Part shown: in pieces, positions 7,611 to 48,129 of the stretch
Numbering within the stretch: the stretch's first letter is position 1
How the letters are laid out: the number at the start of each line of letters is the position of its first letter
Origin: Marinifilum sp.
GTDB lineage: Bacteria; UBA9089; CG2-30-40-21
NCBI GenBank assembly: GCA_020717845.1
Contig: DYDG01000001.1
Location: 1-56,569 of the forward strand
Direction of reading: 5' to 3'
DNA: 56,569 bases
Made by a program: the position numbers and the translations under genes
The notes under the pieces: generated by a model
Database searches by the model: none
What the model was told of the DNA's origin: nothing
The model's input: only the letters and a program-made list of their open reading frames with translations

Positions 7611-7628
7611 TTTTTTACCTCTCATACT

Positions 7629-7755
7629 TCGACAGGCTGTTACGGAATGCAAAATCAGCGACAACGGTATACCGTATATGGTGGGCAATAGTAGGTTTGA
7701 CCCAACATATTGTGTGCTTCTCGTGCCAAATTCTTATTCCGTAACAGCCTGTCGA
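7629..7755. repeat. Perfect 20-bp inverted repeat (TCGACAGGCTGTTACGGAAT / ATTCCGTAACAGCCTGTCGA) with an 87-bp spacer
   Basis: Arms at 7629-7648 and 7736-7755 read directly; the spacer holds the palindrome ACGGTATACCGT. It spans the hsdS 3' end and stops 18 nt upstream of the hsdR start. Confidence 0.85.
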
Positions 7756-8754: not shown

Positions 8755-8758
8755 TTTA

Positions 8759-8980
8759 TTACCTTCTATTTCCCATAATCACCACGGATTTAATTACGCC
8801 TTTGCCGCTGGGCTCTGCATCTTCATATTCGCCGTTGTAATCAGCAGTGTTAGGATTTTTGGCAACCGCTATCTCATTAACGGATTTTATGCTGTCGTAT
8901 CCATCCTCGTAGCCCTGCACCAGAACCTGCGCATCAGCGGGAAAGGTTTTAAGTTTTTCGATCAAATCTTTGATGGTCAT
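8759..8980 (-). CDS. Small hypothetical protein (73 aa) inside the R-M operon
   Basis: Intact ORF. Its ATG overlaps the dinD-like stop (ATGA), and its stop lies 4 nt before the hsdS start. No family recognised. Confidence 0.6.
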
Positions 8981-9828
8981 TTGGTTTTCCTCTCAATCTT
9001 TTTAACGCTTTTGGCCAGTTTCTTTCCTTCGGAATTCAACCGGCGTTCCAGCTTCTTTATGTCTTCTTCAGGCGGTAAAAGTTCAGGTTTGATTCCGCTC
9101 TTGCCCAAAAGCTCGCGAACATCTTTATTGTTCTTGATATGCTCGCCGGTGATCGCCGTCTCTCCGTGCAAATCGTTTTTTTTGGTGTTAAAACTAGTGA
9201 TTTCGGCCGCAAGGTCTTTGGCTTTGATGGTGATGGTGGGTAAAAAGTCCGCAAGCGGACGTTTCTCAGGGGCGCCCAGTTTCTTTTTCATCTCCAAGGT
9301 TGTATAGCCGCCAAAAAGCGAGTGATCACCTTTACTGCGTAAACGGGCAAACCCTTCGCCGTCAATGCCCCGTTCATAGGCAATACAGGAAAGCTCTGAT
9401 TCCGTATCCGCCAGCTTTTCGCGTGCCCGCAGGCGTTCCACAAGGGATATACGCTCTTCCAAAAGTTCCTGTTTACGTGTTTGAATGGCAAAATAGCTTT
9501 GCGCAAAAGCTATCTGCTCCTTACGCGGATCGCCGTTTTGGGCGATTAAATAACAGGCATAGCGGGTCAACATGATGTCGTCAACTTGGCGCTCTGTGCC
9601 TGACCCAATGGGAACCATTTTGCTGACATCAGCAAAATGGTCGGAAACAGCCTGCCCGGCGTTCAGGCAAGCTGTTTTGGCTTTATCAACAACCTGTAAA
9701 AAATTTCGCCACTGGGTGTAATCTAAAAGCCTTTGAATATCGCGGGCTATCCAATATTCAACACCATTTTGAACATACGCTGATTCTTCAAAGGTCTTGT
9801 TTAATTGAACAATAAGTTCTTTTTTCAT
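8977..9828 (-). CDS. dinD: DNA-damage-inducible protein D (DinD)-like protein
   Basis: Collinear similarity to E. coli DinD as I recall it (W.AR.L..LL.Y...R.F..V..+AK.AC...G....DHF, L+RYACYL+.QNGDP, FAIQTR+QEL). ATG 9828 has GGAGAG 9 nt upstream; the ORF track opens at TTG 9855. Confidence 0.8.
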
Positions 9829-9868
9829 GACATGTGACTCTCCGTTACAATACAAAATTTCATTCAGG

Positions 9869-14990: not shown

Positions 14991-17093
14991 TCACGCCTTC
15001 TGGTAAAACCAATAGTATGCTGAAAAACATACATAATAATGTTTCAGCTCCCGATGTAGGGGAAGGCTTATCCTTGTCTGCCTCGAGGTTATCTTGTTTC
15101 CAGGAATTTCATACACTGCCTCTGTCCAGGCATTGTCTGCATTCTCATGTGTCCATACATTCAGGAACTCCCCATTCACCCAGACCTCTATGGGTGTATA
15201 GGTTGATGTCCTCTTGACCATCTTTAGCCCTTTCCCAGGAATAGTCCGAACCACCATGCTCTCTCCACCAGTAATCTGCCTTCCTGCATCGACCACTACT
15301 GCTGACGGATTGTTCTGGTAAGGATACATGCAAGCCTCATCCTGATAGATCAAGCCATAAAACATCCCTGCCTGTGTTTCCCAGAATTTGTAGTGATGAG
15401 CCTTTTCGTTTTCAATATCCCCAACATCAACATAGTCAACCAATCTATACCCCTCTAACTCATTGTTAACAGCATAAACCTTATCCCCTTTGCGGGCAAG
15501 GCTCCAGTCAACCTTATAAACGGTCATGGGCGAAGGGCTGCCGGCAATGGTTGAGTCAATAAGCTTGAACTGACAGATTTCTTCTTTTAACATGCCTATC
15601 TTGTCAAAACTAAACCAGCTTGGATAGATGATAAAATAGTCGGGATATTTTTTTTGGTCAAGTGATTCCAGAAATTCAAAGATGCTTCCAGCCCCATTGA
15701 CCCATGCCCAGCCAGCCTTGTTTGTTCCAAGACCAAGGAGGTCGATTACATATCTATCCCCCAGATACTTTACTGCCCCAAGATCATTAACCGCAACCAC
15801 TGCATCACTGGGAATGTTTTTTCCTATCCATTCCCCAAGAGCCATTTGTTGGTTGTAGATGTCTTTGCAATTTTTTCCATAGGCTACAGAAAAATACAGG
15901 GTATTCAATATGCCAAATAATAGGAAAAAAGAGGCTATGAAAACAAAGCCAACCCTTGTCTTTTTTTCCCCTTTTCCCTCTTTTTCGTCCAATGGCTGAC
16001 AAATCAGCCGGACAAAAAGAGAAAGCCCGCTAACCATAAAGATCAAAAACAAAGGATAAAACGGAATAAGATACCGATGCCAGTGCCATTTAACCGGAAG
16101 GGAAACACAAAGGGAACAAAAGCCTGTCATCAGCAAGCAAATGGTCAATGTCCCAATCCCCAGAGCCTTTTCTCGTATCTCTTTTGTTATAAAATATAAC
16201 ACCCCAATGACTGCAAAAAATAATGAGAATGGGGCAAAATAAATTGACTCCTGTTCTTCATTGGCATACATAGCCGGGATATACTTGCCCTCACACCCAA
16301 AGAATATATCCTTCATGACATAGAAAAAATACTTGCCTGCTGTCGCCGCTATATCCAGCATGTTTCCATTTGGTCTGGAAAGAGGGGACTTGGCAACCAT
16401 GGTGTTAAATGTCAGGCTTCCTGTAAAGGCATAGTTCATGATGACAAAGATCATTCCAAACCCTACAGGTATGAGAAAATAATAGTTTCGTTCCTTACGC
16501 AAAAAGAAGATAAAGCCAAAAAGCACACCAGAAAGGATCAATCCCTCTGGCCTGGTCAAAGCCATAATGCTGGCAAAAACTATGGTCCAGAGATATTTTT
16601 TCTTTTCTGCCTCAAGAAGAAAGGCATATAGGACAGCCAGAATAATACACATAAAAAAGCCTGTCTCCATCCCGCAAAAGAAACTCCAGAGGATTTGACC
16701 ATTAAACAAAAAAAGTAATCCTAAGATAATGCCTGTTGTCTCATTGAATAACCTTCTGCCAATATTGAAGATCAGCAGCGAGGAAACAATCAAAGAGACC
16801 AGCCCCAGTCCAAGCGAATAGGCAAGGATGCCTGTCTTGCCCAGGCCAGCCAAAAACCCAAGGCTCAAAATAAAGGGGTACAACAGACTGGTTGCCCCAG
16901 TAGTTGGACTATCCCCAGTATTGTATTGAAAGGCAGCCCCTTGACAGATTTGCTTGGCATACTGAAAAAAGATAAAGGTGTCATCCAGTGGCGGGGCAAG
17001 ATGGCCGTCTGTATAAAAAAACATTGACCTTAAAAAAACGGCTCCAAGAAGGATCGCTATGGTGCTGAATAATATTGTGTATCGTGTTTGCAT
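14991..17093 (-). CDS. Large polytopic membrane protein. The N-terminal ~500 aa look GT-C (ArnT/PMT-style) and a ~170-aa beta-rich domain follows. Paralog of 17157-19307
   Basis: At least 12 hydrophobic segments. The first loop is YTDGHLAPPLDDTFIFFQYAK with an acidic DD pair. TRPEG motif present; the C-terminus ends YYWFYQKA. ATG 17093 has GAGGAG 5 nt upstream; the ORF track opens at GTG 17132. Confidence 0.6.
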   Translation of the reverse strand: MQTRYTILFSTIAILLGAVFLRSMFFYTDGHLAPPLDDTFIFFQYAKQICQGAAFQYNTGDSPTTGATSLLYPFILSLGFLAGLGKTGILAYSLGLGLVSLIVSSLLIFNIGRRLFNETTGIILGLLFLFNGQILWSFFCGMETGFFMCIILAVLYAFLLEAEKKKYLWTIVFASIMALTRPEGLILSGVLFGFIFFLRKERNYYFLIPVGFGMIFVIMNYAFTGSLTFNTMVAKSPLSRPNGNMLDIAATAGKYFFYVMKDIFFGCEGKYIPAMYANEEQESIYFAPFSLFFAVIGVLYFITKEIREKALGIGTLTICLLMTGFCSLCVSLPVKWHWHRYLIPFYPLFLIFMVSGLSLFVRLICQPLDEKEGKGEKKTRVGFVFIASFFLLFGILNTLYFSVAYGKNCKDIYNQQMALGEWIGKNIPSDAVVAVNDLGAVKYLGDRYVIDLLGLGTNKAGWAWVNGAGSIFEFLESLDQKKYPDYFIIYPSWFSFDKIGMLKEEICQFKLIDSTIAGSPSPMTVYKVDWSLARKGDKVYAVNNELEGYRLVDYVDVGDIENEKAHHYKFWETQAGMFYGLIYQDEACMYPYQNNPSAVVVDAGRQITGGESMVVRTIPGKGLKMVKRTSTYTPIEVWVNGEFLNVWTHENADNAWTEAVYEIPGNKITSRQTRISLPLHRELKHYYVCFSAYYWFYQKA

Positions 17094-17128
17094 AATTCTC
17101 CTCAATCTCATGATTGAATAATTCAATA

Positions 17129-17150
17129 GCACAGACAGAAATGTCTGTGC
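17129..17150. repeat. Hairpin GCACAGACA-GAAA-TGTCTGTGC (ACAGAC/GTCTGT family)
   Basis: Perfect 9-bp stem between the two paralogous membrane-protein genes. Confidence 0.75.
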
Positions 17151-17156
17151 TACTAA

Positions 17157-19307
17157 TTACCTCTGATAAAACCAATAGTGTGCTGGAAAGTATTCTGCCT
17201 TATCCATGGTCAGAATATTTATCCTTGTTCGTTCCATAGTCACCCATTCAGCAGGAATATCCAGGACAGCCTCTGTCCAAACGTTGTCGTTCCCTCTGTC
17301 TTCCTTCCATGCCTTTTTGTGTTTGTTATTAACCATTACCTGGATATTAAACTTGCCCTTGTGTCTGACAATCATCTTCATGTTTGTTGACGGCCTTGTT
17401 TTTATGACCATCTCTTCCCCTCCAGAAAGAACCCTGCCGCCGTCAGCAACAACCTTTTCCTGATCAGATTCTTTTAGAAATGGAAGTTTCAAGGCATAGC
17501 TAATTGCCCCTGGTTTATGCTCTGTCTCCCAAAATCTGTAATTATGAGTTTTTTCGTCTACAAGATCAGCTACATCAAGGCTGTCTATCAATAGCCAGCC
17601 ATCCAGCTCATTTAATACAGATACGCAGGAATCCCCTTTGTGAAGCCATGCCTTTTCTGCCTCATAAACAACTAAGGGTGAAATCTGTTCAATGCTTACC
17701 ATCTTAGAGGAATAGACCCTTTTGCCAAGCAAACCAGATTGCTCAAGCCCAAGCTCATTCTCTGGCAGAATAAAAAATTGGGGATAAACATCCCTTGACT
17801 CTAAGGCTTCAAAGATGCTTCCTGCCCCATGCCTAAAGGACGCAGCCAGCCCATTACTGCCTATTCCTGAAATATCAACAAACCTTCTCTCGCCAAAATA
17901 TGCCAGAGGACTCATCCCTTTAGTTGCAATAACAGCATCTGGAGGAAACTTTTCGTTTATCATCTTTCCCATAGTAATCTCATGGTAATAGGTGTTATAG
18001 CAGCTTTTGCCATAAATGACGCTAAAACAAACCGTGCTGCATAAGGAAAAGAGCAAAAAGAAACAGGAGAATCCATAGAATATCTCCTTATTAGAAGAAG
18101 CCGTGGTTTTGGGAATTAAGGCAGCAATCGCCTGGGAAAACTGGTATGTTCCAATAGCTACCAGAATGATAAAAATCGGATAATACGGAATTACAGCTAT
18201 GTTCCACAAGGTGTGTGCTGGATACAAAAAGGATGAAAGCAATATCCCGCCAAAAAACCAGAGAAAGGTCAATGATACTGTGCCCAAATGTTTTGAGATT
18301 GCTTCCTTAGCAGCCAGGGATAATCCTATTAATCCAAAGAAAAGGGCAAAGGGTGGAAAATAAACAGAGGTCTGCCCTTGATCAGGGTTGTTAATATTAA
18401 AGAACTCTCCACTAAATCCAGAGAATATGTCCTTTGAGAGGAAGAAAAAATACCTGCATGCCTGACCTATTATTTCAGGAAGAGGTGTGTTTGCCTGAAA
18501 AAGAATGGATTCTGAATGAATGGTGTTTGGCAGGAAGTTTCCTGTAAACAGAAAGTTCAGACACAAATGAAATCCCCCGATTGCAGCTGGGATAATAGCC
18601 ATGATACCCTTTGAAAAATCTATCTGCTTAAAAGCAATCAGGTTAATAAAAAAAACCATTGTCAATAGCCAGACCAAAACAATCCCTTCAAATCGGACAA
18701 GAGCCAACAATGAGGCAAAAATCATCACACCAATGTATTTGTTGGTGTTTATTGCCCTAAGGAAACAATAGATTGTCAGCAAGATAAGTGTTGAAAACAA
18801 AAGAACTTCTGTGCCGCCAAGGTATGTCCACAGGATTGGTCCATTCAACAGAAAAAGAAAGGCTGCCAGCAGCCCTGTTTCTTTATTGGCAACCTGCTGC
18901 CCTATCAGAAAAAGAAGCCCCGCAGAAAGCAAAAGGAGCAATAGCCCTGAGAAAAAAGCATAAACGATTATTCCTGCACCCTTTATCCCCAGCACAAAGG
19001 CTGGCATCAAAAGCAGGGAATACAACAGCCCGCCAGCACCTGTGCTGGATGTATCACCTGATGAGTATCTAAAAAACTCACCTGCAGCTAATTGTTTGGC
19101 ATATTGAAACTGATAAAATGCCTTAGATGCTGGCAAAGAAAGATGCCCATCTGTATAAAAAAGCATGGCAACCAAATAGAGAAACGACACCAGCATCCCT
19201 GCCCCAAGGATAATCCATGTTTCTTTACTTATCTTTATCTGCGGAATAGCACCCCCAGCAGAGACTGCCTGCGATCCTTCAACCTTTTTTTTCTTTACCT
19301 TTCCCAC
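17157..19307 (-). CDS. Large polytopic membrane protein, GT-C-like paralog lacking the loop-1 acidic pair
   Basis: 716 aa, collinear with 14991-17093 (FYTDGHL...FQYAKQ, SGD.S.TGA..LLY, same C-terminal domain ending HYWFYQR). The GTG start is 1 nt after the parA stop, with GGGGAGG 7 nt upstream. Confidence 0.6.
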   Translation of the reverse strand: MGKVKKKKVEGSQAVSAGGAIPQIKISKETWIILGAGMLVSFLYLVAMLFYTDGHLSLPASKAFYQFQYAKQLAAGEFFRYSSGDTSSTGAGGLLYSLLLMPAFVLGIKGAGIIVYAFFSGLLLLLLSAGLLFLIGQQVANKETGLLAAFLFLLNGPILWTYLGGTEVLLFSTLILLTIYCFLRAINTNKYIGVMIFASLLALVRFEGIVLVWLLTMVFFINLIAFKQIDFSKGIMAIIPAAIGGFHLCLNFLFTGNFLPNTIHSESILFQANTPLPEIIGQACRYFFFLSKDIFSGFSGEFFNINNPDQGQTSVYFPPFALFFGLIGLSLAAKEAISKHLGTVSLTFLWFFGGILLSSFLYPAHTLWNIAVIPYYPIFIILVAIGTYQFSQAIAALIPKTTASSNKEIFYGFSCFFLLFSLCSTVCFSVIYGKSCYNTYYHEITMGKMINEKFPPDAVIATKGMSPLAYFGERRFVDISGIGSNGLAASFRHGAGSIFEALESRDVYPQFFILPENELGLEQSGLLGKRVYSSKMVSIEQISPLVVYEAEKAWLHKGDSCVSVLNELDGWLLIDSLDVADLVDEKTHNYRFWETEHKPGAISYALKLPFLKESDQEKVVADGGRVLSGGEEMVIKTRPSTNMKMIVRHKGKFNIQVMVNNKHKKAWKEDRGNDNVWTEAVLDIPAEWVTMERTRINILTMDKAEYFPAHYWFYQR

Positions 19308-23218: not shown

Positions 23219-23247
23219 TTGACACAATCGAAAACTTGCTGTATAAT
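23219..23247 (+). promoter_or_regulatory. Consensus sigma70-type promoter of the acs cluster
   Basis: TTGACA (23219-23224), a 17-bp spacer and TATAAT (23242-23247), 61 bp upstream of ATG 23308. Confidence 0.6.
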
Positions 23248-23307: not shown

Positions 23308-24666
23308 ATGGAAACAGTAACACAGCTTTTAGAAGAGTATAAGATTCAGATCAGAGAGAATCAGTCCTATGGGATTGGCGGGCAGAATTGCTTTCCTTTT
23401 CATGCCTTTGAAGGCACCCTTCCTCATATGCCCAAGCTTGCTCTTGAGGTGTATGATACCCCGGATGAGGAATGGCCAGAGGCTGTGGCTGAGGTCTATC
23501 GGGATGTGTGGAACAATCCAGTTGAATGGGCAAAAACTGTTGAAGCTAAATATAAGCCTGATATGATCTGCTTGCAGCTTGCCAGCACAGACCCAATGGG
23601 TGATGATGCCTCTCCTGAAAAAGCAGCTGATATAGCTAAAAGCGTTGCTGAGGCAATAAGCCTGCCATTGATTGTCTATGGATGCGGAAATGCGGAAAAG
23701 GATGGCAAGGTATTAAAAAAGGTGGCTGAGGCATTAGCTTTCAAAAAATCACTTATCGGCCCAGTAGCAGAAGGGAATTATAATACAATTGGGGCAACCA
23801 TTCTGGCTTATGATCATTATGTTATTGCCCAAACACCAACAGATGTCAACCTTTGCAAACAGCTTAACATTCTTTTGTCCAACCTTGGAGTGTCTCTTGA
23901 CAAGATCATTATTGACCCTACCCCTTCTGCCCTTGGTTATGGGTTGGAATATACCTATTCTATCATGGAAAAGATCCGCTGTTCTGCCTTCCAGACCAAT
24001 GATGATAAACTGAATCTGCCAATGATCGGAAATATTGCCCGTGAGGTCTGGAAGATAAAAGAGGTAAAGATAGATGATCCGTGCATGGGGAATACCAAAA
24101 CACGAGGTATTATGTTTGAAGCAATGACAGCTATCTCATATATCCTTGCAGGTTCAGATATTGTGGTGCTCCGTCATCCACAGACACTGGCTTTGGTTAG
24201 AAAATGGCTGGCAGACATGTCTGGCACAAAGGCAGAGGTGAAAACCGAGCCGATAGGGGTTAGTAGTCAGGGATTAGAGGTGAGTTGTGAAAAGTTAGCA
24301 GATAAGAGCATAATGCAGGATACAGAAGCAGAATCAGTTAATGAAAATAAAATCGTCCAGTCTGCCTTCTCTGCCTTCCGCGAACTGGGTGAAGGGCTGG
24401 CAGGGGATGTGTATGCCGCAGCAATAGCCCTGGATCTGAAACAACATGGGCTTGAGCCTGAAAAGGATGTTCCATTAGCAATAACCTATAAGGGTGTAGA
24501 GATTGGACAGATTAAGAATAATATCCGTGTTGGCAATACCCTTGTGGTCATAGGCTGCAAGGATAAGAATATCCTGCATAATTACCTTGCATCACAAGGG
24601 CTGTCTTACGGAATAGGATTGTCGTTTGAAGAGACATTGAATATTGTTTACGCAGAAAGGGGGTAA
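23308..24666 (+). CDS. acsD: Corrinoid Fe-S protein small subunit (AcsD/CdhD delta-like) fused to a C-terminal degenerate GxxExxY module
   Basis: The first ~305 aa are collinear with AcsD/CdhD (DMICLQLASTDP, LPLIVYGCGN, IIDPTPSALGYGLEYTYS). Residues 345-452 carry the GxxExxY pattern (ELGEGLAGDVY...YKGVEIG...). Confidence 0.8.
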   Translation: METVTQLLEEYKIQIRENQSYGIGGQNCFPFHAFEGTLPHMPKLALEVYDTPDEEWPEAVAEVYRDVWNNPVEWAKTVEAKYKPDMICLQLASTDPMGDDASPEKAADIAKSVAEAISLPLIVYGCGNAEKDGKVLKKVAEALAFKKSLIGPVAEGNYNTIGATILAYDHYVIAQTPTDVNLCKQLNILLSNLGVSLDKIIIDPTPSALGYGLEYTYSIMEKIRCSAFQTNDDKLNLPMIGNIAREVWKIKEVKIDDPCMGNTKTRGIMFEAMTAISYILAGSDIVVLRHPQTLALVRKWLADMSGTKAEVKTEPIGVSSQGLEVSCEKLADKSIMQDTEAESVNENKIVQSAFSAFRELGEGLAGDVYAAAIALDLKQHGLEPEKDVPLAITYKGVEIGQIKNNIRVGNTLVVIGCKDKNILHNYLASQGLSYGIGLSFEETLNIVYAERG

Positions 24667-24680
24667 AAGGGTAACCGATT

Positions 24681-25061
24681 ATGGGAATGACACATGTAAC
24701 GGCTGCGGTGGTTAATCTGAGAGATCCAGAAAAACGTTGGGAAGAATTATTCCTTGTGGATACTGGTTCCATTGATTGTATGGCTCCTGGGAGATGTTTG
24801 CGAGAGATTGGGATTGAACCCAGTGGAAAACGGACATATGAGCTGGCTGATGGGACAGAAATAAAGATGGATATTGCTGCTGTCCAGATAGAGTTTATGG
24901 GCGAGATAGTTGGTGCAACCATAATCTTTGGCAAGGATGATGTAGAACCTATACTGGGTGTAACAGCTCTTGAGTCGGTTGGAATTGAGGTTGATCCTCA
25001 GAACCAGCGACTGAAACGGCTGCCTGCTGTTCGGTTGAAACGAGTTAAGGCTTCAGTTTGA
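24681..25061 (+). CDS. Retropepsin-like clan AA aspartyl protease (single DTG domain)
   Basis: 126 aa. LFLVDTGSIDCMAP active-site motif; ILGVTALESVG; size and pattern of single-domain bacterial/archaeal retropepsin-like proteins. Confidence 0.7.
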   Translation: MGMTHVTAAVVNLRDPEKRWEELFLVDTGSIDCMAPGRCLREIGIEPSGKRTYELADGTEIKMDIAAVQIEFMGEIVGATIIFGKDDVEPILGVTALESVGIEVDPQNQRLKRLPAVRLKRVKASV

Positions 25062-25084
25062 ACAATGCGTTAACAGAAAAGGTA

Positions 25085-25105
25085 ACACAAGCATCTTGCT
25101 TGTGT
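25085..25105. repeat. Hairpin ACACAAGCA-TCT-TGCTTGTGT
   Basis: Perfect 9-bp stem between the protease and the CODH-like gene. Related words occur at 51926-51941 and 52153-52160. Confidence 0.7.
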
Positions 25106-25177
25106 AGCTCTCAATCTGGAGCTGACTTGCGGACATATAAGATTGGAGAAAAGTTGGAGGAAAAATGGAGGAAAAAT

Positions 25178-26938
25178 ATGAAAAGCTTTACAGAACGATT
25201 AGCAAAACATAAAACCTGTCCCTTTTATGAAGAGGGTGCCTGCTGCCGGGCATGTTACATGGGTCCGTGCAGGATTACGGATAAGGCAAAAGAGGGTGTT
25301 TGCGGTGCCACAGATTCTACCATCTCTGCCAGAAACCTTGGCAGAATGGCTGCTGCTGGCGCATCATCCCTGTCTACAGCTGTTCTTTCTCTGTTAGACA
25401 GCCAGAAGAAAAAGGAATGGTTCTCCCCACAAGGGGAAAAGGGACTGGATCTGAGCAAGGTTCTACCTATAGAAAGGGTTAGCCTGCTCAATCGTCTGCA
25501 TCTTATCCCACGAAATATCCAGCGGGAGATAGTAGAGCTGCTTCATCGGGTCCACATGGGCGTTGACCAAGAGTGTGAACATATTCTTTTTCAAGTTCTT
25601 CGCATGAGCCTTGGCAGTGTGCTTTCATCTGCACTCCTGTCAGCAGACGAAAAGTCATCGATGGTCCATGTTGATACATCTGCACTTTCTCTGGAAAAGC
25701 CAAATGTTATCCTGTTTGGTAATGTCCAATTGAATGATGACAAGGTAAACACTGTCCGTGTAGATTCCTTGCTTAGCTTGGAGGTATTTCTTGCCTCTGG
25801 ACTGGTTGATGTGATATTTGCCGAACAGCTACCAGCATCTATCAACTATATATCTGCCTGTTATCATACTACTTGCGTCTCTGTTTCTTCAGAGGTTGTG
25901 GCTAAGGCAATCGAGAATCAGGTTAAACGCACTCAAGTCTTGAGTTTCAAGGGAACAGTCTCCCAGCCAAAGCTGTCAGCAGGAATACTTAAAAACGCCC
26001 TGATGGATTCAAGTATCCGTGGGATTGTCTGGCTTGCTGGATGTATAGACCCACGCCTTGAAGATAAAAGAAAGAAAATCGTCGAGGAATTGGTTGCTCA
26101 GGATATTCTGGTGATAGTTACTGGCTGTTCCATTAACCAGCTCATGGAGACTGGGCTGCTTCATCAGCCAGTTGCTCCGGTTGGTGGGTTTTTGAAGGAA
26201 TTTTGTGAGAAAACAGGTATCCCGCCAGTGGTCTATCTGGGAAGCTGCTTAAAAGAAGGGGCAGTCATCAGGCTGCTGAATGAGATAAGCAAGTCCGCAG
26301 CCATCGGAGATTTTTCGTCCTTGCCTGTAGGCTTGATCCTTCCCACATGGCGAAGCGAACGGAATATCTCCCTGATGCTTGGAGCCATTGCCTGCGGCAT
26401 AGCGGTTCAAGTTTCTTCCCCTCTTCCAATCAATTCAGAGGTGCGAGGGTTTTTAGAAAATAATTGCAATGAGATTATCCTTGGACATCTCCTGAAGAAT
26501 GATGTCCCTATCGTAGAATATATCAACCGCAAAAGAGAACGGTTGTCGCTTGCTTCATCCTTGAGCCTTTATATGCCAAAAACTTCTATCCTTAAAGATG
26601 ATCTGGATAAGGTGGCTGCGGCTGCATTTTCTGTATACAAGGAATTGGGACATGGGTTGTCTGTTGATATCTATAAAAACGCATTGGTTGTAGAATTGAA
26701 GCAGCTTGGGCTGCAAGCATCTATGGTAAAGGTGCCTATCACCTACCTTGGTTCCATAATCTCTGAGCAGGAGGAATTGCTGGTAGAAAATGCTGGCATA
26801 GTCTGCATAGGCAAGGATGCTGCTGTAAAAAAGCGGTTAAAAAAAGCTCTGACAGAGGCAAATAAGGAACAGGGGCTATATGTCATCTTTGATACGGAGA
26901 TGCTGAGGATAGGGCATATTGTATTGGCAAAAGGATAG
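25178..26938 (+). CDS. CODH (CooS)-like paralog with incomplete C-cluster ligands, fused to a C-terminal degenerate GxxExxY module
   Basis: The N-terminal Cys pattern CPF..GACCRACYMGPCRI...GVCGA is retained, as are GC(I)D, TGC and GSC. There is no HGH, GICCT or VDVQC equivalent. The last 113 aa follow the GxxExxY pattern. ATG 25178 has GGAGGA 8 nt upstream; the ORF track opens at 25058. Confidence 0.75.
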   Translation: MKSFTERLAKHKTCPFYEEGACCRACYMGPCRITDKAKEGVCGATDSTISARNLGRMAAAGASSLSTAVLSLLDSQKKKEWFSPQGEKGLDLSKVLPIERVSLLNRLHLIPRNIQREIVELLHRVHMGVDQECEHILFQVLRMSLGSVLSSALLSADEKSSMVHVDTSALSLEKPNVILFGNVQLNDDKVNTVRVDSLLSLEVFLASGLVDVIFAEQLPASINYISACYHTTCVSVSSEVVAKAIENQVKRTQVLSFKGTVSQPKLSAGILKNALMDSSIRGIVWLAGCIDPRLEDKRKKIVEELVAQDILVIVTGCSINQLMETGLLHQPVAPVGGFLKEFCEKTGIPPVVYLGSCLKEGAVIRLLNEISKSAAIGDFSSLPVGLILPTWRSERNISLMLGAIACGIAVQVSSPLPINSEVRGFLENNCNEIILGHLLKNDVPIVEYINRKRERLSLASSLSLYMPKTSILKDDLDKVAAAAFSVYKELGHGLSVDIYKNALVVELKQLGLQASMVKVPITYLGSIISEQEELLVENAGIVCIGKDAAVKKRLKKALTEANKEQGLYVIFDTEMLRIGHIVLAKG

Positions 26939-26972: not shown

Positions 26973-28901
26973 ATGTTTGAAGAGATAACTGTTTGTCCAG
27001 CTTCGCAGGCAATGCTACAAAAGGCAAAGGATGAAAATATCCGGACATGCTTTGACCGGATAAGTGATCAAAAAAGCTGTCCCTTTGGTGATTCAGGGGG
27101 ATGCTGTCGGGTTTGCAGTACTGGTCCATGTAGAATATCACCCAAAAAGGCTGATGAAGAAACAGGGCTTTGCGGTGCTTCAGCAGATGTTATTGCAGCC
27201 AAAAACTTTGTCCGTATGATTGCAGGCGGTGCATCTGCACATTCGGACCATGGACGGGGTGTGGCAGAAGTGCTGTTGTTGGCAGCTAAGGGAGAGATTC
27301 CCGGCTATACGATAAAGGATACAAAAAAACTCCTGATGCTCGCTGAGGTTTTTGAGATACCGACTGAGAATAGAAAGGCAGAGGATATTGCCATTGAGCT
27401 GGCAGAGAAGTGTCTGAATGAGTTTAGCAAGGATGAACCGCTTACCTTCCTGAAAAGGGCACCGCTAAACAGACAAAATTTATGGAAAGAAAAGGGTATT
27501 GCCCCAAGAGGGATTGATAAGGAAGTGGTTGAGTCCATGAGCATGACCTTGATGGGAAATTCCCTTGATTATAAAGAGATTATGAGAGCTGGGACACGTG
27601 CTGCACTCGCTGATGGCTGGGGCGGATCCATGATTGGGACTGAGCTTCAGGATGTCTTGTTTGGCACACCAAAACCTATACGGTCTAAGGTAAACCTGGG
27701 GGTGCTTAAAAAGGATGAGGTAAATATCATTGTTCATGGACATGAGCCGCTTCTTTCTGAGATAATCGTTATGGTGGCAAAGCAGCAGGATATGCTTGAT
27801 TATGCTAAAAAACATGGTGCCAGGGGCATTAATATTGCCGGTATATGTTGCACCGCCAATGAGGTCCTGATGCGTCATGGGGTTCCGCTTGCCGGCAACT
27901 TTATCCAACAGGAATTGGCTATCATTACCGGTGCTGTTGAGGCAATGGTGGTTGATGTCCAGTGTGTATTCCAGAGCCTGCCTCAGATAGCTCACTGTTA
28001 TCATACAAAGGTTATTACTACCAACAAAAGGGCAAAGATACCCGGAGCAGTTCACATTGAGTTTGATGAGCATGATGCTGTCCAGTCTGCAACTGAGATT
28101 ATCCGCATGGCTATTGAGAATTACCCAAAAAGGGATCAGATCAAGGTTGACATCCCTGATGAAGCCATTGACCTGGTAGCAGGGTTCTCCCATGAGACCA
28201 TAAACCACATGTTGGGTGGCTCATTCCGTGCCACCTACAGACCATTGAATGATGCCATCATTGATGGACGGATACGAGGCGTAGTAGGCATTGTTGGCTG
28301 CAATAATCCAAGGGTCCGGCATGATGATATTCATATTACCTTAGCCAAAGAGTTGATTGCTAAAGATGTGCTTGTTGTTTCAACAGGTTGTGCGGCTATG
28401 GCGTTTGGCAAGGCAGGACTACTGCTTCCAGAGGCAGCAAAATACGCAGGACCAGGTCTGGCTGAGATATGTGAGACAGTTGGTATTCCGCCAGTGCTTC
28501 ATTGCGGAAGCTGTGTGGATAACTCAAGGCTGCTGATTGCCGTAAGTGAGATAGCCCACATAGGCGGATTGGGTGATGATATAGGCGGGCTTCCTGCCTG
28601 TGGCTGTGCCCCTGAATGGATGAGCGAAAAGGCTATTGCCATTGGACAATACTTTGTTGCCTCTGGGGCACCGGTATTGTTTGGTGTAGGATTTCCGATT
28701 ACTGGCGGTGGGATGAAAGACCTGCTGTTTAAGGAATACTGGGATGAGTATACTGCTTTATGGGCTGTTGAGCCTGACCCGATCAAACAGGCAGAAATTC
28801 TTGTTAAATGGATTGATAATGCCCGTGAAAAATTAGGCATAAAGGAAAGACCTCCACGTGTGCTTTATGATATGGCTATGAGGAGGGAGTTGAAGTTTTA
28901 A
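26973..28901 (+). CDS. cooS: Anaerobic Ni-Fe carbon monoxide dehydrogenase catalytic subunit
   Basis: All signature motifs are present (CPFGDSGGCCRVCSTGPCRI, VHGHEP, GICCTANE, VDVQC, VGCNNP, STGCAA, GSCVDNSR). ATG 26973 has GGAGGAGG upstream. Confidence 0.93.
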   Translation: MFEEITVCPASQAMLQKAKDENIRTCFDRISDQKSCPFGDSGGCCRVCSTGPCRISPKKADEETGLCGASADVIAAKNFVRMIAGGASAHSDHGRGVAEVLLLAAKGEIPGYTIKDTKKLLMLAEVFEIPTENRKAEDIAIELAEKCLNEFSKDEPLTFLKRAPLNRQNLWKEKGIAPRGIDKEVVESMSMTLMGNSLDYKEIMRAGTRAALADGWGGSMIGTELQDVLFGTPKPIRSKVNLGVLKKDEVNIIVHGHEPLLSEIIVMVAKQQDMLDYAKKHGARGINIAGICCTANEVLMRHGVPLAGNFIQQELAIITGAVEAMVVDVQCVFQSLPQIAHCYHTKVITTNKRAKIPGAVHIEFDEHDAVQSATEIIRMAIENYPKRDQIKVDIPDEAIDLVAGFSHETINHMLGGSFRATYRPLNDAIIDGRIRGVVGIVGCNNPRVRHDDIHITLAKELIAKDVLVVSTGCAAMAFGKAGLLLPEAAKYAGPGLAEICETVGIPPVLHCGSCVDNSRLLIAVSEIAHIGGLGDDIGGLPACGCAPEWMSEKAIAIGQYFVASGAPVLFGVGFPITGGGMKDLLFKEYWDEYTALWAVEPDPIKQAEILVKWIDNAREKLGIKERPPRVLYDMAMRRELKF

Positions 28902-28966: not shown

Positions 28967-29359
28967 ATGCAATACGAAAAGGTTCTTGATGTTATGACCC
29001 GTGGGGTAATAGCTGTTCATCTTGACGATTCAGTACGCACCGTAGCTCAAACACTGAGCCAGAACAAGATACATGCTGTATCTGTGGTAACAAAGGATGG
29101 AGAGGTAGCCGGGGTAATCTCTGAGATAGATGTTATCGGTGCTATTGATGAAGACATCGATAACCTGAAGGCAGAGGATATCATGTGTTCTTCCTGTATC
29201 CGAACCATTACCCCGCAAAGCCCATTGATAGAGGCAGCAAAGATGATGCAAACAATGAAATGTCATCGGTTGTTGGTCATGGGCGAAGGCTCAAAAGATG
29301 ATGTAGCTGTAGGGGTATTGTCTGCAAGTGATATTGTCGCTGAAATGGCTAAGGAATAG
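28967..29359 (+). CDS. CBS-domain pair protein
   Basis: 130 aa with two CBS motifs (VMTRGVIAVHLDDSV...HAVSVV, IMCSSCIRTITPQSPL...HRLLVM). Confidence 0.8.
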   Translation: MQYEKVLDVMTRGVIAVHLDDSVRTVAQTLSQNKIHAVSVVTKDGEVAGVISEIDVIGAIDEDIDNLKAEDIMCSSCIRTITPQSPLIEAAKMMQTMKCHRLLVMGEGSKDDVAVGVLSASDIVAEMAKE

Positions 29360-29422: not shown

Positions 29423-31633
29423 ATGTCGAAAATTATTGCATCTGCCGCAATCCGTGGAGCGTATAAGTTAGTCGATCGAGCTGAAAATGAGATTAAATCA
29501 GCAGTAGAAAAGTTTGGCAAGGATAGGAAGGTTGAATTTCCCAATACAGCCTATTACCTGCCTATTATTTATGGGATGACCGGAATAGCTGTAAAAAAAT
29601 TAGGTGATATGGATGAGGTGCTTAATATAGCTAAAGGGCTTCTGCCACCACATCCGTCAGAGAGTGTCTGGCTGCCCTATCTGGGCGGAACATTGGACGC
29701 TGGTATGGCAACGCTGTTTGTTGAAGAGATGATTGAGGCATTGAAATACTTAGAAGAACCTATTCCGTATCTGATTGCTCCATCACCAGATGAAAATAAT
29801 CTCTGGATTGGGGCAGCAGATGATAAGATATTGCGAGAGCGAGGGATAGAATTTGTAGATGGGACTGCCCCAGGTTTTGCAGCCTGTGTCGGCTCACTTC
29901 CTGATGCAGAGACTGCGGTAAAAATAGCCCAGGAGCTTCAGGAAAAAAGCCTTTATGTATTTATGTGTGCCCAGCATAATGGGAAAGGTATGGCTGAACA
30001 GTTGAAAGAAAAAAATATCCAGATGGGGTGGGAAACAAGGCTTGTCCCGTTTGGACAGGATGTTACCTCTGCTGTCTTTGCCCTTGGTTTTGCTGCCAGA
30101 GCAGCCATGTCCTTTGGCGGGGTAAAACCAGGGGATTATAGAAGGATATTGATGTATAACCGCCATCGGGTCTTTGCCTTTGTCTTAGCACTCGGTGAGG
30201 TTACAGATGAATGGTATGCTACGGCTGCTGGTGCTATTAACTATGGTTTTCCAGTAATTGCTGATACAGATATTCCTACTATTTACCCAAGAGGAATATG
30301 TCTTTATGAGCATGTAGTTCCAAATGTTTCTCATGAGGAGATGGTTGCAAAGGCTTTACAGGTCAGAGGGTTAAAGGTGGTTCATGTGAATATAGACATC
30401 CCTGTTGCCTATGCACCTGCCTTTGAGGGTGAGCGAATCAAGAAAGAGGATGTCTTTGTAGAGATGTGCAGCAGCAGAACAAAGAAACCCTCCTTTGAAT
30501 TTGTAACCATGAAACCAATTGAAGAGGTAGAAGATAGCCGGGTAGAGATAATTGGACATGATCTTGATGAGATAAAAGAAGGCGATCTCTTATCACTTGG
30601 GATTGTTGTGGAGATAGCAGGGGCAAGGTTCCAGAAGGATTTTGAGCCTATCCTTGAGCGACAGATACATAAATTTGTCAATGAGGCACAGGGCATCTGG
30701 CATGCAGGGCAACGAGATATTAACTGGGTCAGAATAAGCAAGGCTGCCTTTGCAAAAGGCTTCAGACTGCGGCATTTTGGAAACATCCTTCATGCCAAGA
30801 TCCATGAGGGATATTCAGGGATTGTAGATAAGGTTCAGGTGAAGATATATACAGATGAGGAAAAGGCAAGGGAATTATTGAATATAGCCCGAGCTTCTTA
30901 TGTAGAAAGAGATGAGCGAACCGCTGGTATGACCGATGAGGGTGTGGATGTATTCTATTCCTGTGCCCTCTGTCAATCCTTTGCTCCAACCCATGTTTGT
31001 ATTGTTACCCCAGAGAGACAGGGGTTGTGTGGAGCCTATAGCTGGCTCGACTGTAAAGCATCCTACGAAATAGACCCATACGGACCTAATAAGCCTGTCA
31101 AAAAAGGAGAGGCAATTGACGAGAAGAAGGGTGCCTGGAAAGGGATAAACGAGGCTATCGTAGCCCTGTCTCAAGGCAAGATAGAGCGAATGAATGCCTA
31201 CACCATGATGGAAGACCCTATGACCTCGTGTGGTTGTTTTGAATGTATCTCCTGCCTCTTGCCATTGTGCAATGGGATCATGACCGTAGACAGGGATTCA
31301 AGCATGATGACCCCATGCGGGATGAAGTTCTCCACCCTTGCCGGCTCTGTTGGCGGAGGCGTGCAGTCGCCAGGGTTTATCGGCCATTCCAAGCTTTATA
31401 TCTCCAGCAAGAAGTTTGTCTCTGGAGACGGCGGGCTTTTAAGGCTTACATGGATGCCAAAAAACCTGAAGGAACAGCTTCGGGAAAAATTGGAAAAGCT
31501 ATCAAAAGAGCTGGGTGTAGAAGGGTTTGTCGATATGATTGCCGATGAAACCATAGCTTCAACACAAGAAGAGGTCTATGAGCATATGCAGAGGGTTGGA
31601 CATCCAGCCTTGAATATGGAGTCAATAGTATAG
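29423..31633 (+). CDS. acsB: Acetyl-CoA synthase (CODH/ACS alpha subunit, AcsB)
   Basis: 736 aa. N-terminus NTAYYLPIIYG...IEALKYL. A-cluster motifs CALCQSFAPTHVCIVTPERQGLCG and SCGCFE. Confidence 0.93.
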   Translation: MSKIIASAAIRGAYKLVDRAENEIKSAVEKFGKDRKVEFPNTAYYLPIIYGMTGIAVKKLGDMDEVLNIAKGLLPPHPSESVWLPYLGGTLDAGMATLFVEEMIEALKYLEEPIPYLIAPSPDENNLWIGAADDKILRERGIEFVDGTAPGFAACVGSLPDAETAVKIAQELQEKSLYVFMCAQHNGKGMAEQLKEKNIQMGWETRLVPFGQDVTSAVFALGFAARAAMSFGGVKPGDYRRILMYNRHRVFAFVLALGEVTDEWYATAAGAINYGFPVIADTDIPTIYPRGICLYEHVVPNVSHEEMVAKALQVRGLKVVHVNIDIPVAYAPAFEGERIKKEDVFVEMCSSRTKKPSFEFVTMKPIEEVEDSRVEIIGHDLDEIKEGDLLSLGIVVEIAGARFQKDFEPILERQIHKFVNEAQGIWHAGQRDINWVRISKAAFAKGFRLRHFGNILHAKIHEGYSGIVDKVQVKIYTDEEKARELLNIARASYVERDERTAGMTDEGVDVFYSCALCQSFAPTHVCIVTPERQGLCGAYSWLDCKASYEIDPYGPNKPVKKGEAIDEKKGAWKGINEAIVALSQGKIERMNAYTMMEDPMTSCGCFECISCLLPLCNGIMTVDRDSSMMTPCGMKFSTLAGSVGGGVQSPGFIGHSKLYISSKKFVSGDGGLLRLTWMPKNLKEQLREKLEKLSKELGVEGFVDMIADETIASTQEEVYEHMQRVGHPALNMESIV

Positions 31634-48093: not shown

Positions 48094-48129
48094 GTGAGGG
48101 AACTCTGTGAAAAAAGGGAGGTTACGAAG

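What the first reader, a model, noticed from the sequence alone, without database searches (positions are those of the whole stretch)
23308..26938. Twin, mutually similar, catalytically degenerate GxxExxY (PD-(D/E)XK-like) modules fused to AcsD and to a CODH paralog
SEEN: The AcsD-like ORF is 452 aa. After the core (ending about LVRKWLADMSG) comes a ~40-aa linker and then a 108-aa module at nt 24340-24663: FSAFRELGEGLAGDVYAAAIALDLKQHGLEPEKDVPLAITYKGVEIGQIKNNIRVGNTLVVIGCKD..GLSYGIGLSF. The CODH-like ORF two genes downstream ends in a 113-aa module at nt 26597-26935: FSVYKELGHGLSVDIYKNALVVELKQLGLQASMVKVPITYLGSIISEQEELLVENAGIVCIGKD..GLYVIFD. The two modules align with each other end to end. ESTABLISHED: The pattern G-x-G-L-x-x-(E/D)-x-Y ... 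EL...G ... P-(I/L)-x-Y-(K)-G ... hydrophobic strand ... GLL(I)NF is the signature of stand-alone ~125-aa GxxExxY proteins (Pfam PF13366 PDDEXK_3, TIGR04256). Where canonical members carry D-x(n)-(I/V)VELK, these two read N..VVIGCK and E..IVCIGK, so the Glu-x-Lys of the nuclease motif is missing in both. INFERENCE: The modules are non-catalytic and have been co-opted, for example as a pairing or oligomerisation handle tethering the corrinoid-protein subunit to the CODH-like scaffold. Alternatively they are domesticated selfish genes that lost their own start and stop codons. I know of no description of this domain on Wood-Ljungdahl enzymes.
Basis: partly seen in the sequence, partly recalled or inferred. 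Interest (0 to 1): 0.82.

Follow-up and report, generated by a model that had tools for sequence, protein, structure and literature searches.

The report
Dead nuclease domains on acetyl-CoA enzymes
In one clade of uncultured Desantisbacteria, two proteins of the CO2-fixing acetyl-CoA pathway each carry a conserved but catalytically dead copy of a small nuclease-like domain at their tail, probably reused as a protein-docking handle, though that role has not been tested.

Summary
The AcsD ORF (23308-24666) and a CODH-like ORF (most likely 25178-26938) each end in a domain that scores above the curated cut-offs of PF13366 and TIGR04256. Neither is an assembly artefact: both fusions recur in 12-13 protein clusters (58-100% identity) from independent Candidatus Desantisbacteria-like assemblies, and nowhere else among 1.84 billion representatives. 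All 23 modules lack the Glu of GxxExxY and the E-x-K, while scaffold residues are kept. AlphaFold gives a confident α/β model (pLDDT 92). Both modules are under purifying selection (dN/dS 0.15-0.39), whereas the AcsD linker is hypervariable. They persist even where the two genes are no longer adjacent. The host "CODH paralog" is an undescribed, degenerate Ni-CODH: B/D-cluster cysteines are kept, three of six C-cluster ligands are lost.

Corrections: the two modules are no closer to each other than to free-standing family members, and they align over about 70% of their length, not end to end.

Mechanism (inferred): non-catalytic association modules. The family precedent is that 27 of 28 tandem two-domain GxxExxY proteins pair one intact half with one dead half. 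Hetero-pairing that leashes the corrinoid protein to the CODH-like scaffold is plausible but untested.

The parts
23219..23247 (+). Promoter-like site, TTGACA-17-TATAAT (12 of 12 matches), 60 nt upstream of acsD
   Evidence: The total number of promoter-like sites in the region is no higher than in shuffles, so this is only a consensus match.
23308..24222 (+). AcsD / CdhD core (aa 1-305), the small subunit of the corrinoid iron-sulfur protein
   Evidence: PF03599 2.4e-42. NF003376 370 bits against a cut-off of 280. Mean pairwise identity 80% among 12 orthologues; dN/dS 0.08-0.11.
24223..24345 (+). Hypervariable, low-complexity linker (aa 306-346) between the AcsD core and its module
   Evidence: 15% mean pairwise identity. 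Length 26-66 aa in orthologues, with in-frame repeats such as ADLRVCPD x3, SDRSDRSD and SRQEAGG. dN/dS about 0.3-1.5.
24346..24666 (+). AcsD-type nuclease-dead GxxExxY module (aa 347-452, plus stop)
   Evidence: PF13366 46 bits and TIGR04256 48 bits. Motif columns read G/R/D, then N/D, then no E-x-K. AlphaFold2 pLDDT 92.4, pTM 0.83. 60% mean identity; dN/dS 0.15-0.32.
24681..25061 (+). Retropepsin-like clan AA aspartic protease (126 aa, with a DTG motif), conserved between the two fusion genes
   Evidence: TIGR03698 71.8 bits against a cut-off of 57.35. Orthologues score 215-268 bits in L002, L004, L005 and L006. Further retropepsin-like ORFs flank the paralog in L005, L006, L008 and L009.
25178..26542 (+). 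Core of a degenerate CODH-like paralog (aa 1-455 of the 586-aa protein; the frame is open from TTG 25058)
   Evidence: PF03063 matches in parts only. TIGR01702 162.8 bits against a cut-off of 478. B/D-cluster Cys motif and the three C-terminal C-cluster Cys kept; the His, the first two Cys, the acid-base His and the Lys are lost. Foldseek to Ni-CODH structures E = 3e-25. Nearest non-orthologues are about 26% identical.
26543..26602 (+). Short linker (aa 456-475) between the paralog core and its module
   Evidence: 53% mean identity. AlphaFold2 pLDDT below 50 for residues 461-473.
26603..26938 (+). Paralog-type nuclease-dead GxxExxY module (aa 476-586, plus stop)
   Evidence: PF13366 41 bits and TIGR04256 43 bits. 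Motif columns read V/A/I/M/T/P, then E, then C-x-G. 62% mean identity; dN/dS 0.22-0.39.
26973..28901 (+). Canonical Ni-CODH catalytic subunit (CooS/AcsA; 642 aa from ATG 26973; the frame is open from 26919)
   Evidence: TIGR01702 634.7 bits against a cut-off of 478. Aligns full length to CODHs with all ligand motifs.
28967..29359 (+). CBS-pair protein, conserved between cooS and acsB
   Evidence: PF00571 6.9e-22. An orthologue is present in L002.
29423..31633 (+). Acetyl-CoA synthase AcsB, the last gene of the plus-strand cluster
   Evidence: PF19436, PF03598 and PF18537. The genes that follow are on the minus strand and unrelated.

Best explanation
Origin. In a clade of Candidatus Desantisbacteria, two copies of a small GxxExxY (PF13366, PD-(D/E)XK-like) gene were captured as C-terminal domains. 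One sits on AcsD, the small subunit of the corrinoid iron-sulfur protein, behind a 26-66-aa disordered leash. The other sits on a lineage-specific, catalytically degenerate CODH-like Fe-S protein, behind a linker of about 15-20 aa.

What is shown. Both copies have lost the nuclease catalytic residues, keep the fold-determining residues, and are under purifying selection.

What is inferred. The modules work as non-catalytic protein-protein association domains, using the domain-domain pairing that is normal for this family. The most economical version has the AcsD module pair with the paralog module. That would leash the mobile corrinoid protein to a CODH-like scaffold, a bacterial counterpart of the integrated archaeal ACDS complex, while the long linker still lets it shuttle between its partners.

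The confidence given is for the association-module reading as a whole. For hetero-pairing specifically I put it at about 0.3.
For: Real and lineage-wide:
- The AcsD+PF13366 fusion is in 13 clusters (58-99% identity) and the Prismane+PF13366 fusion in 12 clusters (63-100%), from independent assemblies.
- The exhaustive search of 1.84 billion representatives finds only these two families at E <= 1e-30.
- The two fusions co-occur on the same contig (window, L002/L007, L004, L005, L006) or in the same genome (JASEHO: L001 + L008) wherever this can be assessed.

Non-catalytic:
- 0 of 23 modules have the first Glu or E-x-K.

Folded and selected:
- AlphaFold2 pLDDT 92.4.
- Modules are 60-62% identical against 15% for the AcsD linker.
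- dN/dS is 0.15-0.39 for the modules against about 0.3-1.75 for the linkers.
- The modules are kept in the divergent subclade, where the two genes are no longer adjacent or in the acs cluster (L015, L001, L009).

Pairing precedent:
- 27 of 28 tandem two-domain GxxExxY proteins combine one intact and one dead half, while 97 of 120 single-domain members are intact.
- The Foldseek top list includes catalytic and structural subunit pairs of tRNA-splicing endonucleases.

Architecture:
- A long leash on the mobile partner and a short, low-confidence linker on the scaffold.
Against: - No direct test of any interaction was possible: no multimer prediction, and no coordinates were available.
- The two module types are no more similar to each other than to free-standing members, so nothing marks them as a matched pair.
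- Net charges are not complementary.
- Homodimerisation of each module, or binding to a third partner, would fit the same data.
- Foldseek matches to PD-(D/E)XK structures are not significant (best E = 0.011, TM 0.3-0.44).
- The tandem-protein set was selected by similarity to a profile built from dead modules, which may enrich for dead halves.
- In the divergent subclade the two genes are unlinked, which removes the operon argument for a shared complex there.
Confidence: 0.45

Rival explanations
1. Each module self-associates or stabilises only its own host protein, for example an extra homodimer clamp on the CODH-like dimer, or oligomerisation of CoFeSP. There is no cross-tether between AcsD and the paralog.
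For: The modules are no closer to each other than to other family members. In the divergent subclade the two genes are unlinked. CODHs are already homodimers, so two paralog modules would be held near each other (established knowledge). The family's pairing precedent fits homo-pairing just as well.
Against: The two fusions co-occur strictly, and no AcsD-only or paralog-only state is seen. A 26-66-aa disordered leash is an odd design for a module that only stabilises its own host.
Confidence: 0.2
2. Neutral relics. Selfish GxxExxY genes landed downstream of acsD and of the paralog, lost their stop and start codons and decayed catalytically. They persist without function.
For: Free-standing GxxExxY genes sit wedged inside operons (L018, between MoxR and DUF58/VWA). 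A canonical copy lies inside GatB (P0361). The region around the paralog collects small retropepsin-like and PIN ORFs. The fusion points coincide with the normal C-termini of AcsD and CODH.
Against: dN/dS is 0.15-0.39 in the modules against a near-neutral linker. Identity is 60-62% against 15%. The predicted fold is confident. No orthologue has lost or truncated a module, across a divergence that takes the cores down to 60-70% identity.
Confidence: 0.1
3. The modules are non-cleaving nucleic-acid-binding domains, for example for autoregulation on their own mRNA or DNA, or for nucleoid localisation.
For: The parent superfamily binds nucleic acids (PMC3424549). Dead nuclease domains often keep binding activity (general knowledge).
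Against: The AcsD-type modules are mildly acidic (mean pI 5.65, net charge about -2) and the paralog type is near neutral. The metal- and phosphate-binding residues are all gone, and about 7-8 residues after strand 3 are deleted. There is no obvious reason for metabolic enzymes to bind nucleic acid.
Confidence: 0.1
4. The dead modules recruit a third party: an intact free-standing GxxExxY protein encoded elsewhere, as in the intact+dead tandem proteins. Alternatively they are processed by the conserved neighbouring retropepsin-like protease, in the manner of a polyprotein.
For: 27 of 28 tandem proteins pair a dead half with an intact half. A DTG aspartic protease gene is conserved between the two fusion genes, and the AcsD linker is long and exposed.
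Against: No free-standing GxxExxY ORF is present in the window or in any fetched locus. Nothing links this protease family to these substrates. In the divergent subclade AcsD-module is not next to a protease gene.
Confidence: 0.08
5. Assembly or gene-calling artefact: a stop codon or frameshift really separates core and module.
For: The data are metagenome-assembled. Nothing else supports this.
Against: The same uninterrupted frames occur in at least 8 independent assemblies from different projects, with variable linkers. The window sequence across the junction shows no stop.
Confidence: 0.02

Closest known systems
Free-standing GxxExxY proteins (TIGR04256 / Pfam PF13366 PDDEXK_3), function unknown
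   Same: Same sequence family: both modules pass both curated cut-offs. The scaffold residues are shared (L-G-x-G, Y, A-L, E-L, Y-x-G, G, F) and the domain length is similar.
   Different: Fused rather than about 125 aa and stand-alone. The eponymous Glu, the Asp and the E-x-K are all lost. About 7-8 residues after strand 3 are deleted. Scores are 41-48 bits, against 90-137 bits per domain for canonical members.
Tandem two-domain GxxExxY proteins (about 250-277 aa; for example P0241-P0251)
   Same: They contain a nuclease-dead GxxExxY domain retained as the partner of another GxxExxY domain, in 27 of 28 cases.
   Different: There the dead domain is joined in cis to an intact one. Here both domains are dead and sit on two different metabolic proteins.
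Structural (non-catalytic) subunits of tRNA-splicing endonucleases (for example 3if0, 3iey_B, TSEN15-34)
   Same: A catalytically inert paralog of a nuclease domain is used purely to build a hetero-oligomer. These are among the top Foldseek hits for the module model.
   Different: The Foldseek matches are not significant (E >= 0.011). There is no sequence relationship, and the biological context is different.
Archaeal ACDS complex, and bacterial CODH/ACS plus CoFeSP
   Same: The same enzyme set is present: AcsD/CdhD, CODH and AcsB in one cluster. The proposed effect, physical integration of the corrinoid protein with a CODH-type scaffold, is what ACDS achieves (established knowledge).
   Different: ACDS uses CdhA/CdhB and direct subunit contacts, not an added docking domain. 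Neither system is known to include a dead CODH paralog or a nuclease-fold domain. acsC and acsE are not in this window.
Ni-CODH structural groups with incomplete C-cluster motifs (Inoue et al. 2019, PMC6344411)
   Same: The B-cluster Cys and the three C-terminal C-cluster Cys are kept, while the other C-cluster ligands and the acid-base residues vary. The paralog shows the same pattern.
   Different: That survey does not list the paralog. For Desantisbacteria it lists only the canonical E-1 enzyme. The paralog is about 26% identical to any other CODH, has two large internal deletions, and carries the extra C-terminal domain.

Membership tests
GxxExxY protein family (TIGR04256 / PF13366 PDDEXK_3) | Score above the curated HMM cut-off | tested here: met
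   PF13366: 46.0 and 41.3 bits against a gathering score of 22. TIGR04256: 48.2 and 42.9 bits against a cut-off of 35.
GxxExxY protein family (TIGR04256 / PF13366 PDDEXK_3) | The G-x-x-E-x-x-Y motif with its Glu | tested here: not met
   The Gly and Tyr are kept. The Glu is absent in 23 of 23 modules (G/R/D in the AcsD type, V/A/I/M/T/P in the paralog type). An acidic residue sits one position later in 21 of 23.
GxxExxY protein family (TIGR04256 / PF13366 PDDEXK_3) | PD-(D/E)XK catalytic Asp and E-x-K | tested here: not met
   The Asp position is Asn (7) or Asp (4) in the AcsD type and Glu (12) in the paralog type. E-x-K is absent in all 23.
GxxExxY protein family (TIGR04256 / PF13366 PDDEXK_3) | Stand-alone protein of about 125 aa | tested here: not met
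   Both are C-terminal domains of proteins of 452 and 586 aa, in every orthologue.
PD-(D/E)XK (restriction-endonuclease-like) fold | An alpha-beta-beta-beta-alpha-beta core, recognisable by structure comparison | tested here: inconclusive
   The AlphaFold2 model is confident (pLDDT 92.4) with topology aa-bbbb-a-bb. The Foldseek top list is dominated by PD-(D/E)XK-fold proteins, but no hit reaches E <= 0.001 and TM is 0.3-0.44. No solved relative by sequence.
AcsD / CdhD (CoFeSP small subunit) | Full-length match to curated delta-subunit models | tested here: met
   NF003376 370 bits against a cut-off of 280. PF03599 145 bits. It is below the cut-off of the narrower NF040759 WLP_AcsD model (302 against 430).
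AcsD / CdhD (CoFeSP small subunit) | Clustered with CODH and ACS genes | tested here: met
   In the window it lies with cooS and acsB. This is not so in the divergent subclade (L001, L015).
Anaerobic Ni-CODH catalytic subunit (TIGR01702) | Score above the equivalog cut-off | tested here: not met
   The paralog scores 162.8 bits against a cut-off of 478. The neighbouring true CODH scores 634.7.
Anaerobic Ni-CODH catalytic subunit (TIGR01702) | Complete C-cluster ligand set (His + 5 Cys) and acid-base His/Lys | tested here: not met
   Only the three C-terminal Cys are kept. The His and the segment carrying the first Cys are lost or deleted, the second Cys is not conserved, and Lys is replaced by Arg. 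Residue identities of the ligands are taken from established knowledge and from PMC6344411.
Anaerobic Ni-CODH catalytic subunit (TIGR01702) | CODH fold with B- and D-cluster cysteines | tested here: met
   Foldseek E = 3e-25 to D. vulgaris CODH and ChCODH-II. The C-x7-CC-x2-C-x4-C ... C motif is conserved.
Integrated ACDS-like supercomplex (functional analogy only) | Physical association of the CoFeSP subunit with a CODH-type scaffold | not testable with these tools
   This needs multimer prediction or biochemistry. Here there is only indirect evidence: co-occurrence, linker architecture and the family's pairing habit.

The most novel reading that the evidence does not exclude
The two dead nuclease-fold domains are a matched hetero-dimerising 'Velcro'. 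It leashes the corrinoid iron-sulfur protein, through a long flexible tether, to a catalytically dead CODH that serves as an Fe-S scaffold or electron relay. The result would be a bacterial, independently evolved equivalent of the archaeal ACDS megacomplex, built by exaptation of a selfish nuclease gene.
Probability: 0.3. Interest if true: 0.75.

Novelty: new variant of a known kind. Interest (0 to 1): 0.55.

Why it matters
- How the mobile corrinoid protein is kept near CODH/ACS in bacteria is not settled. A natural, genetically encoded tether would show one solution, and it could be copied when engineering synthetic CO2-fixing complexes.
- The finding gives the first functional handle on the large GxxExxY/PF13366 family, whose function is listed as unknown. 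It points to obligate domain pairing and to repeated retention of dead partners.
- It documents a clean case of a small, probably selfish nuclease gene being domesticated as a structural domain on core metabolic enzymes.
- It uncovers an unlisted, degenerate Ni-CODH lineage.

The limits are that everything rests on metagenome-assembled genomes of an uncultured candidate phylum, and that the mechanism is inferred rather than shown.

Tried and rejected
1. Sequence search of the PDB with the module profile: nothing, best E about 0.2 (spurious Dpo4 matches).
2. The third large-database search, with the module profile, returned only 5 hits and gave no architecture survey.
3. I first read the high-scoring tandem proteins as the closest relatives. 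That was rejected: their scores are sums over two domains, and per-domain scores show no special affinity.
4. Charge complementarity between the two module types: none.
5. Whether other long AcsD proteins (Deltaproteobacteria, 440-516 aa) carry a cryptic version of the module: no match to either HMM; it is a different extension.
6. An intermediate state (free-standing GxxExxY, protease or paralog beside an unfused AcsD) in the nearest unfused relative: not found (L014).
7. Free-standing GxxExxY genes in the window and loci as possible donors or partners: none.
8. Tandem repeats at DNA level in the window's linker: only a trivial 9-nt x2 repeat inside the module.
9. The first motif tabulation for tandem proteins had shifted columns. 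It was discarded and redone with columns anchored on the conserved E/D/E/K.
10. Model coordinates are not exposed, so interface and surface-conservation mapping and the module's position on the CODH core could not be analysed.

Full report
**1. What is there**

The plus-strand cluster at 23.3-31.6 kb reads as follows.

| Coordinates | Gene | Key evidence |
|---|---|---|
| 23308-24666 | AcsD-like ORF, 452 aa | PF03599; NF003376 370 bits (cut-off 280) |
| 24681-25061 | retropepsin-like clan AA aspartic protease, 126 aa | TIGR03698 71.8 bits (cut-off 57.35) |
| 25058/25178-26938 | CODH-like ORF | PF03063 in parts; TIGR01702 162.8 bits (cut-off 478) |
| 26919/26973-28901 | canonical Ni-CODH | TIGR01702 634.7 bits |
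| 28967-29359 | CBS-pair protein | PF00571 |
| 29423-31633 | AcsB | PF19436, PF03598, PF18537 |

A perfect TTGACA-17-TATAAT match lies at 23219-23247. acsC and acsE are not in the window.

They match each other at 38% identity over 73 residues, E = 4e-12.

**2. Not an artefact, and lineage-specific**

- A search of the 5.8-billion-protein collection with the AcsD fusion found 13 clusters (58-99% identity, 437-516 aa) that all carry PF03599 + PF13366. Where named, they are Candidatus Desantisbacteria or 'bacterium' MAGs. The next-best hits (55% identity or less) are plain AcsD proteins of about 315 aa.
- The CODH-like fusion occurs in 12 full-length clusters (63-100% identity, 550-604 aa), all with PF03063 + PF13366. 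Everything beyond them is an ordinary CODH at about 26% identity.
- A profile of 23 modules searched against 1.84 billion representatives gave 4562 family hits, but only two at E <= 1e-30. Those two are the representatives of these fusion families.

Seven genome loci were retrieved and mapped locally.

- The order AcsD-module | protease | paralog-module | (0-2 further retropepsin-like ORFs) | CODH | CBS is conserved in the window, L002/L007, L004, L005 and L006.
- In a more divergent subclade the genes have separated. AcsD-module is followed by Band_7 (L001) or by pyruvate-carboxylase genes (L015). The paralog-module gene sits among PIN and retropepsin-like ORFs and pilus genes (L009, L008).
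- Both proteins still keep their modules there, and both occur in the same genome (JASEHO: L001 and L008).

**3. Anatomy and selection**

| Region | Mean pairwise identity | dN/dS, least-saturated pairs |
|---|---|---|
| AcsD core | 80% | 0.08-0.11 |
| AcsD linker | 15% | about 0.3-1.5 |
| AcsD module | 60% | 0.15-0.32 |
| Paralog core | 72% | 0.20-0.21 |
| Paralog linker | 53% | about 0.4-1.75 |
| Paralog module | 62% | 0.22-0.39 |

- The AcsD linker is 26-66 aa, low in complexity, and often built of in-frame repeats.
- The paralog linker is about 15-20 aa.
- The linker dN/dS values rest on few codons and are noisy.
- The modules are therefore maintained by purifying selection, which argues against neutral relics.

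**4. Catalytic status**

I aligned the modules to an HMM of 69 free-standing members. In those members the four catalytic positions are E 83%, D 93%, E 83% and K 84%.

- None of the 23 modules has the first Glu or the E-x-K.
- The Asp position is Asn (7) or Asp (4) in the AcsD type and Glu (12) in the paralog type.
- A conserved Asn near the C-terminus is lost in both types.
- About 7-8 residues after strand 3 are missing.
- The scaffold residues are retained.

AlphaFold2 on the 23-sequence alignment gives a confident model (pLDDT 92.4, pTM 0.83) with topology aa-bbbb-a-bb. Foldseek against the PDB gives no significant hit (best E = 0.011, TM 0.3-0.44). The top of the list is nonetheless almost entirely restriction-endonuclease-fold proteins: tRNA-splicing endonuclease catalytic and structural subunits, Hjc, AF1548, 3ijm, RecU and EcoRV. 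No solved relative exists by sequence. Fold membership is therefore likely but formally inconclusive.

**5. The host 'CODH paralog' is itself new**

- It keeps the B/D-cluster motif C-x7-CC-x2-C-x4-C ... C and the three C-terminal C-cluster cysteines (GC..P, TGC, GSC).
- It lacks the His ligand, the whole segment carrying the first Cys ligand, a conserved second Cys, and the acid-base His region.
- It has Arg in place of the catalytic Lys.
- Two internal segments are deleted.
- Its AlphaFold2 model (pLDDT 79) matches Ni-CODH structures at E = 3e-25. The linker to the module is of low confidence.

Retention of the three C-terminal Cys with variable remaining ligands is a pattern described for divergent Ni-CODHs (PMC6344411). 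That survey, however, lists only the canonical E-1 enzyme for Desantisbacteria, not this protein.

**6. Are the modules 'twins'?**

Per domain, the AcsD-type and paralog-type modules score 30-45 bits against each other and 36-48 bits against the best free-standing proteins. They are thus no closer to each other than to the family at large.

They do share some derived states: loss of Glu with an acidic residue one position later in 21 of 23 modules (against 15% of free domains), loss of the conserved Asn, and a shortened segment after strand 3. One duplication or two separate captures cannot be distinguished.

**7. Evidence bearing on mechanism**

Among the 150 best family hits there are 28 tandem two-domain proteins. 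Of these, 27 combine exactly one intact half with one degenerate half, while 97 of 120 single-domain members are intact. I infer that the working unit of this family is a pair of GxxExxY domains, and that a dead domain is repeatedly kept purely as a partner.

Applied here, the two dead modules are best read as association domains. The architecture fits a tether that keeps CoFeSP close while leaving it free to move: a long disordered leash on AcsD, whose protein has to move between partners, and a short linker on the CODH-like scaffold.

This last step is inference. No multimer prediction or coordinates were available, charges are not complementary, and homodimerisation or a third partner would fit equally well.

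**8. Origin**

- The fusion points coincide with the normal C-termini of AcsD (about 305-315 aa) and of CODH.
- The modules begin near the N-terminus of a typical GxxExxY protein.
- Free-standing GxxExxY genes can sit wedged co-directionally inside operons (L018, between MoxR and DUF58/VWA).
- A canonical copy interrupts GatB (P0361).
- The neighbourhood of the paralog accumulates small retropepsin-like and PIN ORFs.

Capture of a downstream selfish gene by stop-codon loss, followed by exaptation, is the most economical history. No intermediate state was found (L014).

**9. Literature**

PF13366 is listed with function 'Unknown' (PMC3424549). GxxExxY appears only incidentally elsewhere. Nothing links it to CODH/ACS or to Desantisbacteria Wood-Ljungdahl genes. 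Databases annotate these proteins automatically as 'acetyl-CoA decarbonylase/synthase complex subunit delta' or 'GxxExxY protein'.

**10. Verdict**

This is a real, conserved, lineage-restricted pair of domain fusions: a nuclease-dead GxxExxY domain on AcsD and another on a novel degenerate CODH. I class it as a new variant of a known system.

| Claim | Confidence |
|---|---|
| Real, selected and non-catalytic | about 0.9 |
| Acts as an association module | about 0.4-0.5 |
| The two modules pair with each other to tether CoFeSP | about 0.3 |

Noticed in passing
window 24681-25061; also L005 8380-8844, L006 4001-4510 and 4770-5213, L008 3-305, 549-953 and 3640-4065, L009 6952-7383: A retropepsin-like clan AA aspartic protease gene (DTG motif, TIGR03698) is conserved between the two fusion genes. 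One to three more diverged copies flank the paralog in relatives. Its role, whether processing of the linkers or a selfish/TA-like passenger, is unknown.
   Followed up: partly
P0241-P0251 and 17 others: Tandem two-domain GxxExxY proteins (about 250-277 aa) almost always (27 of 28) pair one intact catalytic half with one degenerate half. This pseudo-heterodimer architecture does not seem to be described for PF13366.
   Followed up: partly
P0361 (494 aa): A GatB protein with a canonical PF13366 domain (115 bits) inserted inside its GatB_N catalytic domain. It is either an in-frame insertion of the nuclease gene into a housekeeping gene or a gene-calling artefact.
   Followed up: no
P0019, P0023, P0031, P0044 and others (AcsD homologues of 440-516 aa): A different, unrelated C-terminal extension occurs on AcsD in Deltaproteobacteria-like genomes. 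It ends in a conserved LRYWYS..YGSEKRKKPA tail, has no Pfam match and does not match the module HMMs.
   Followed up: partly
window 14991-17132 and 17157-19307 (minus strand): Two adjacent paralogous 713- and 716-aa predicted membrane proteins (35% identical, E = 6e-136) with no Pfam match, next to parA and parB.
   Followed up: partly
window about 47.6-48.1 kb, with dnaA at 48094-49467 and dnaN at 49611-50714: A GC trough (31-33%) and a GC-skew sign change just upstream of dnaA-dnaN. This is the likely replication origin, so the acs cluster lies about 20-25 kb from oriC. mnmG, rsmG, parA and parB are at 19.3-23.0 kb.
   Followed up: no
window 6159-9855 (minus strand): Apparent remnants of a type I restriction-modification system: a 509-aa HsdR N-terminal part that ends inside the SWI2/SNF2 domain, and a single-TRD HsdS. 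A Bro-N domain gene lies beside them.
   Followed up: no
window 28967-29359; L002 15683-16078: A stand-alone CBS-pair protein is conserved between cooS and acsB in this lineage. It is a possible ligand-sensing regulator of the complex.
   Followed up: no
window about 24559-24561 (Cys417 of the AcsD fusion) and the Cys in the IVCIG motif of the paralog module: Each module type has its own conserved Cys in or next to the strand that carries E-x-K in canonical members: invariant in the AcsD type (IGCKD) and 11 of 12 in the paralog type (IVCIG). The significance is unknown.
   Followed up: no
L018 2908-3282: A free-standing GxxExxY gene wedged co-directionally, with gaps of 38-70 nt, between MoxR (AAA_3) and DUF58/VWA genes. 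This fits insertion of these small genes inside operons.
   Followed up: no
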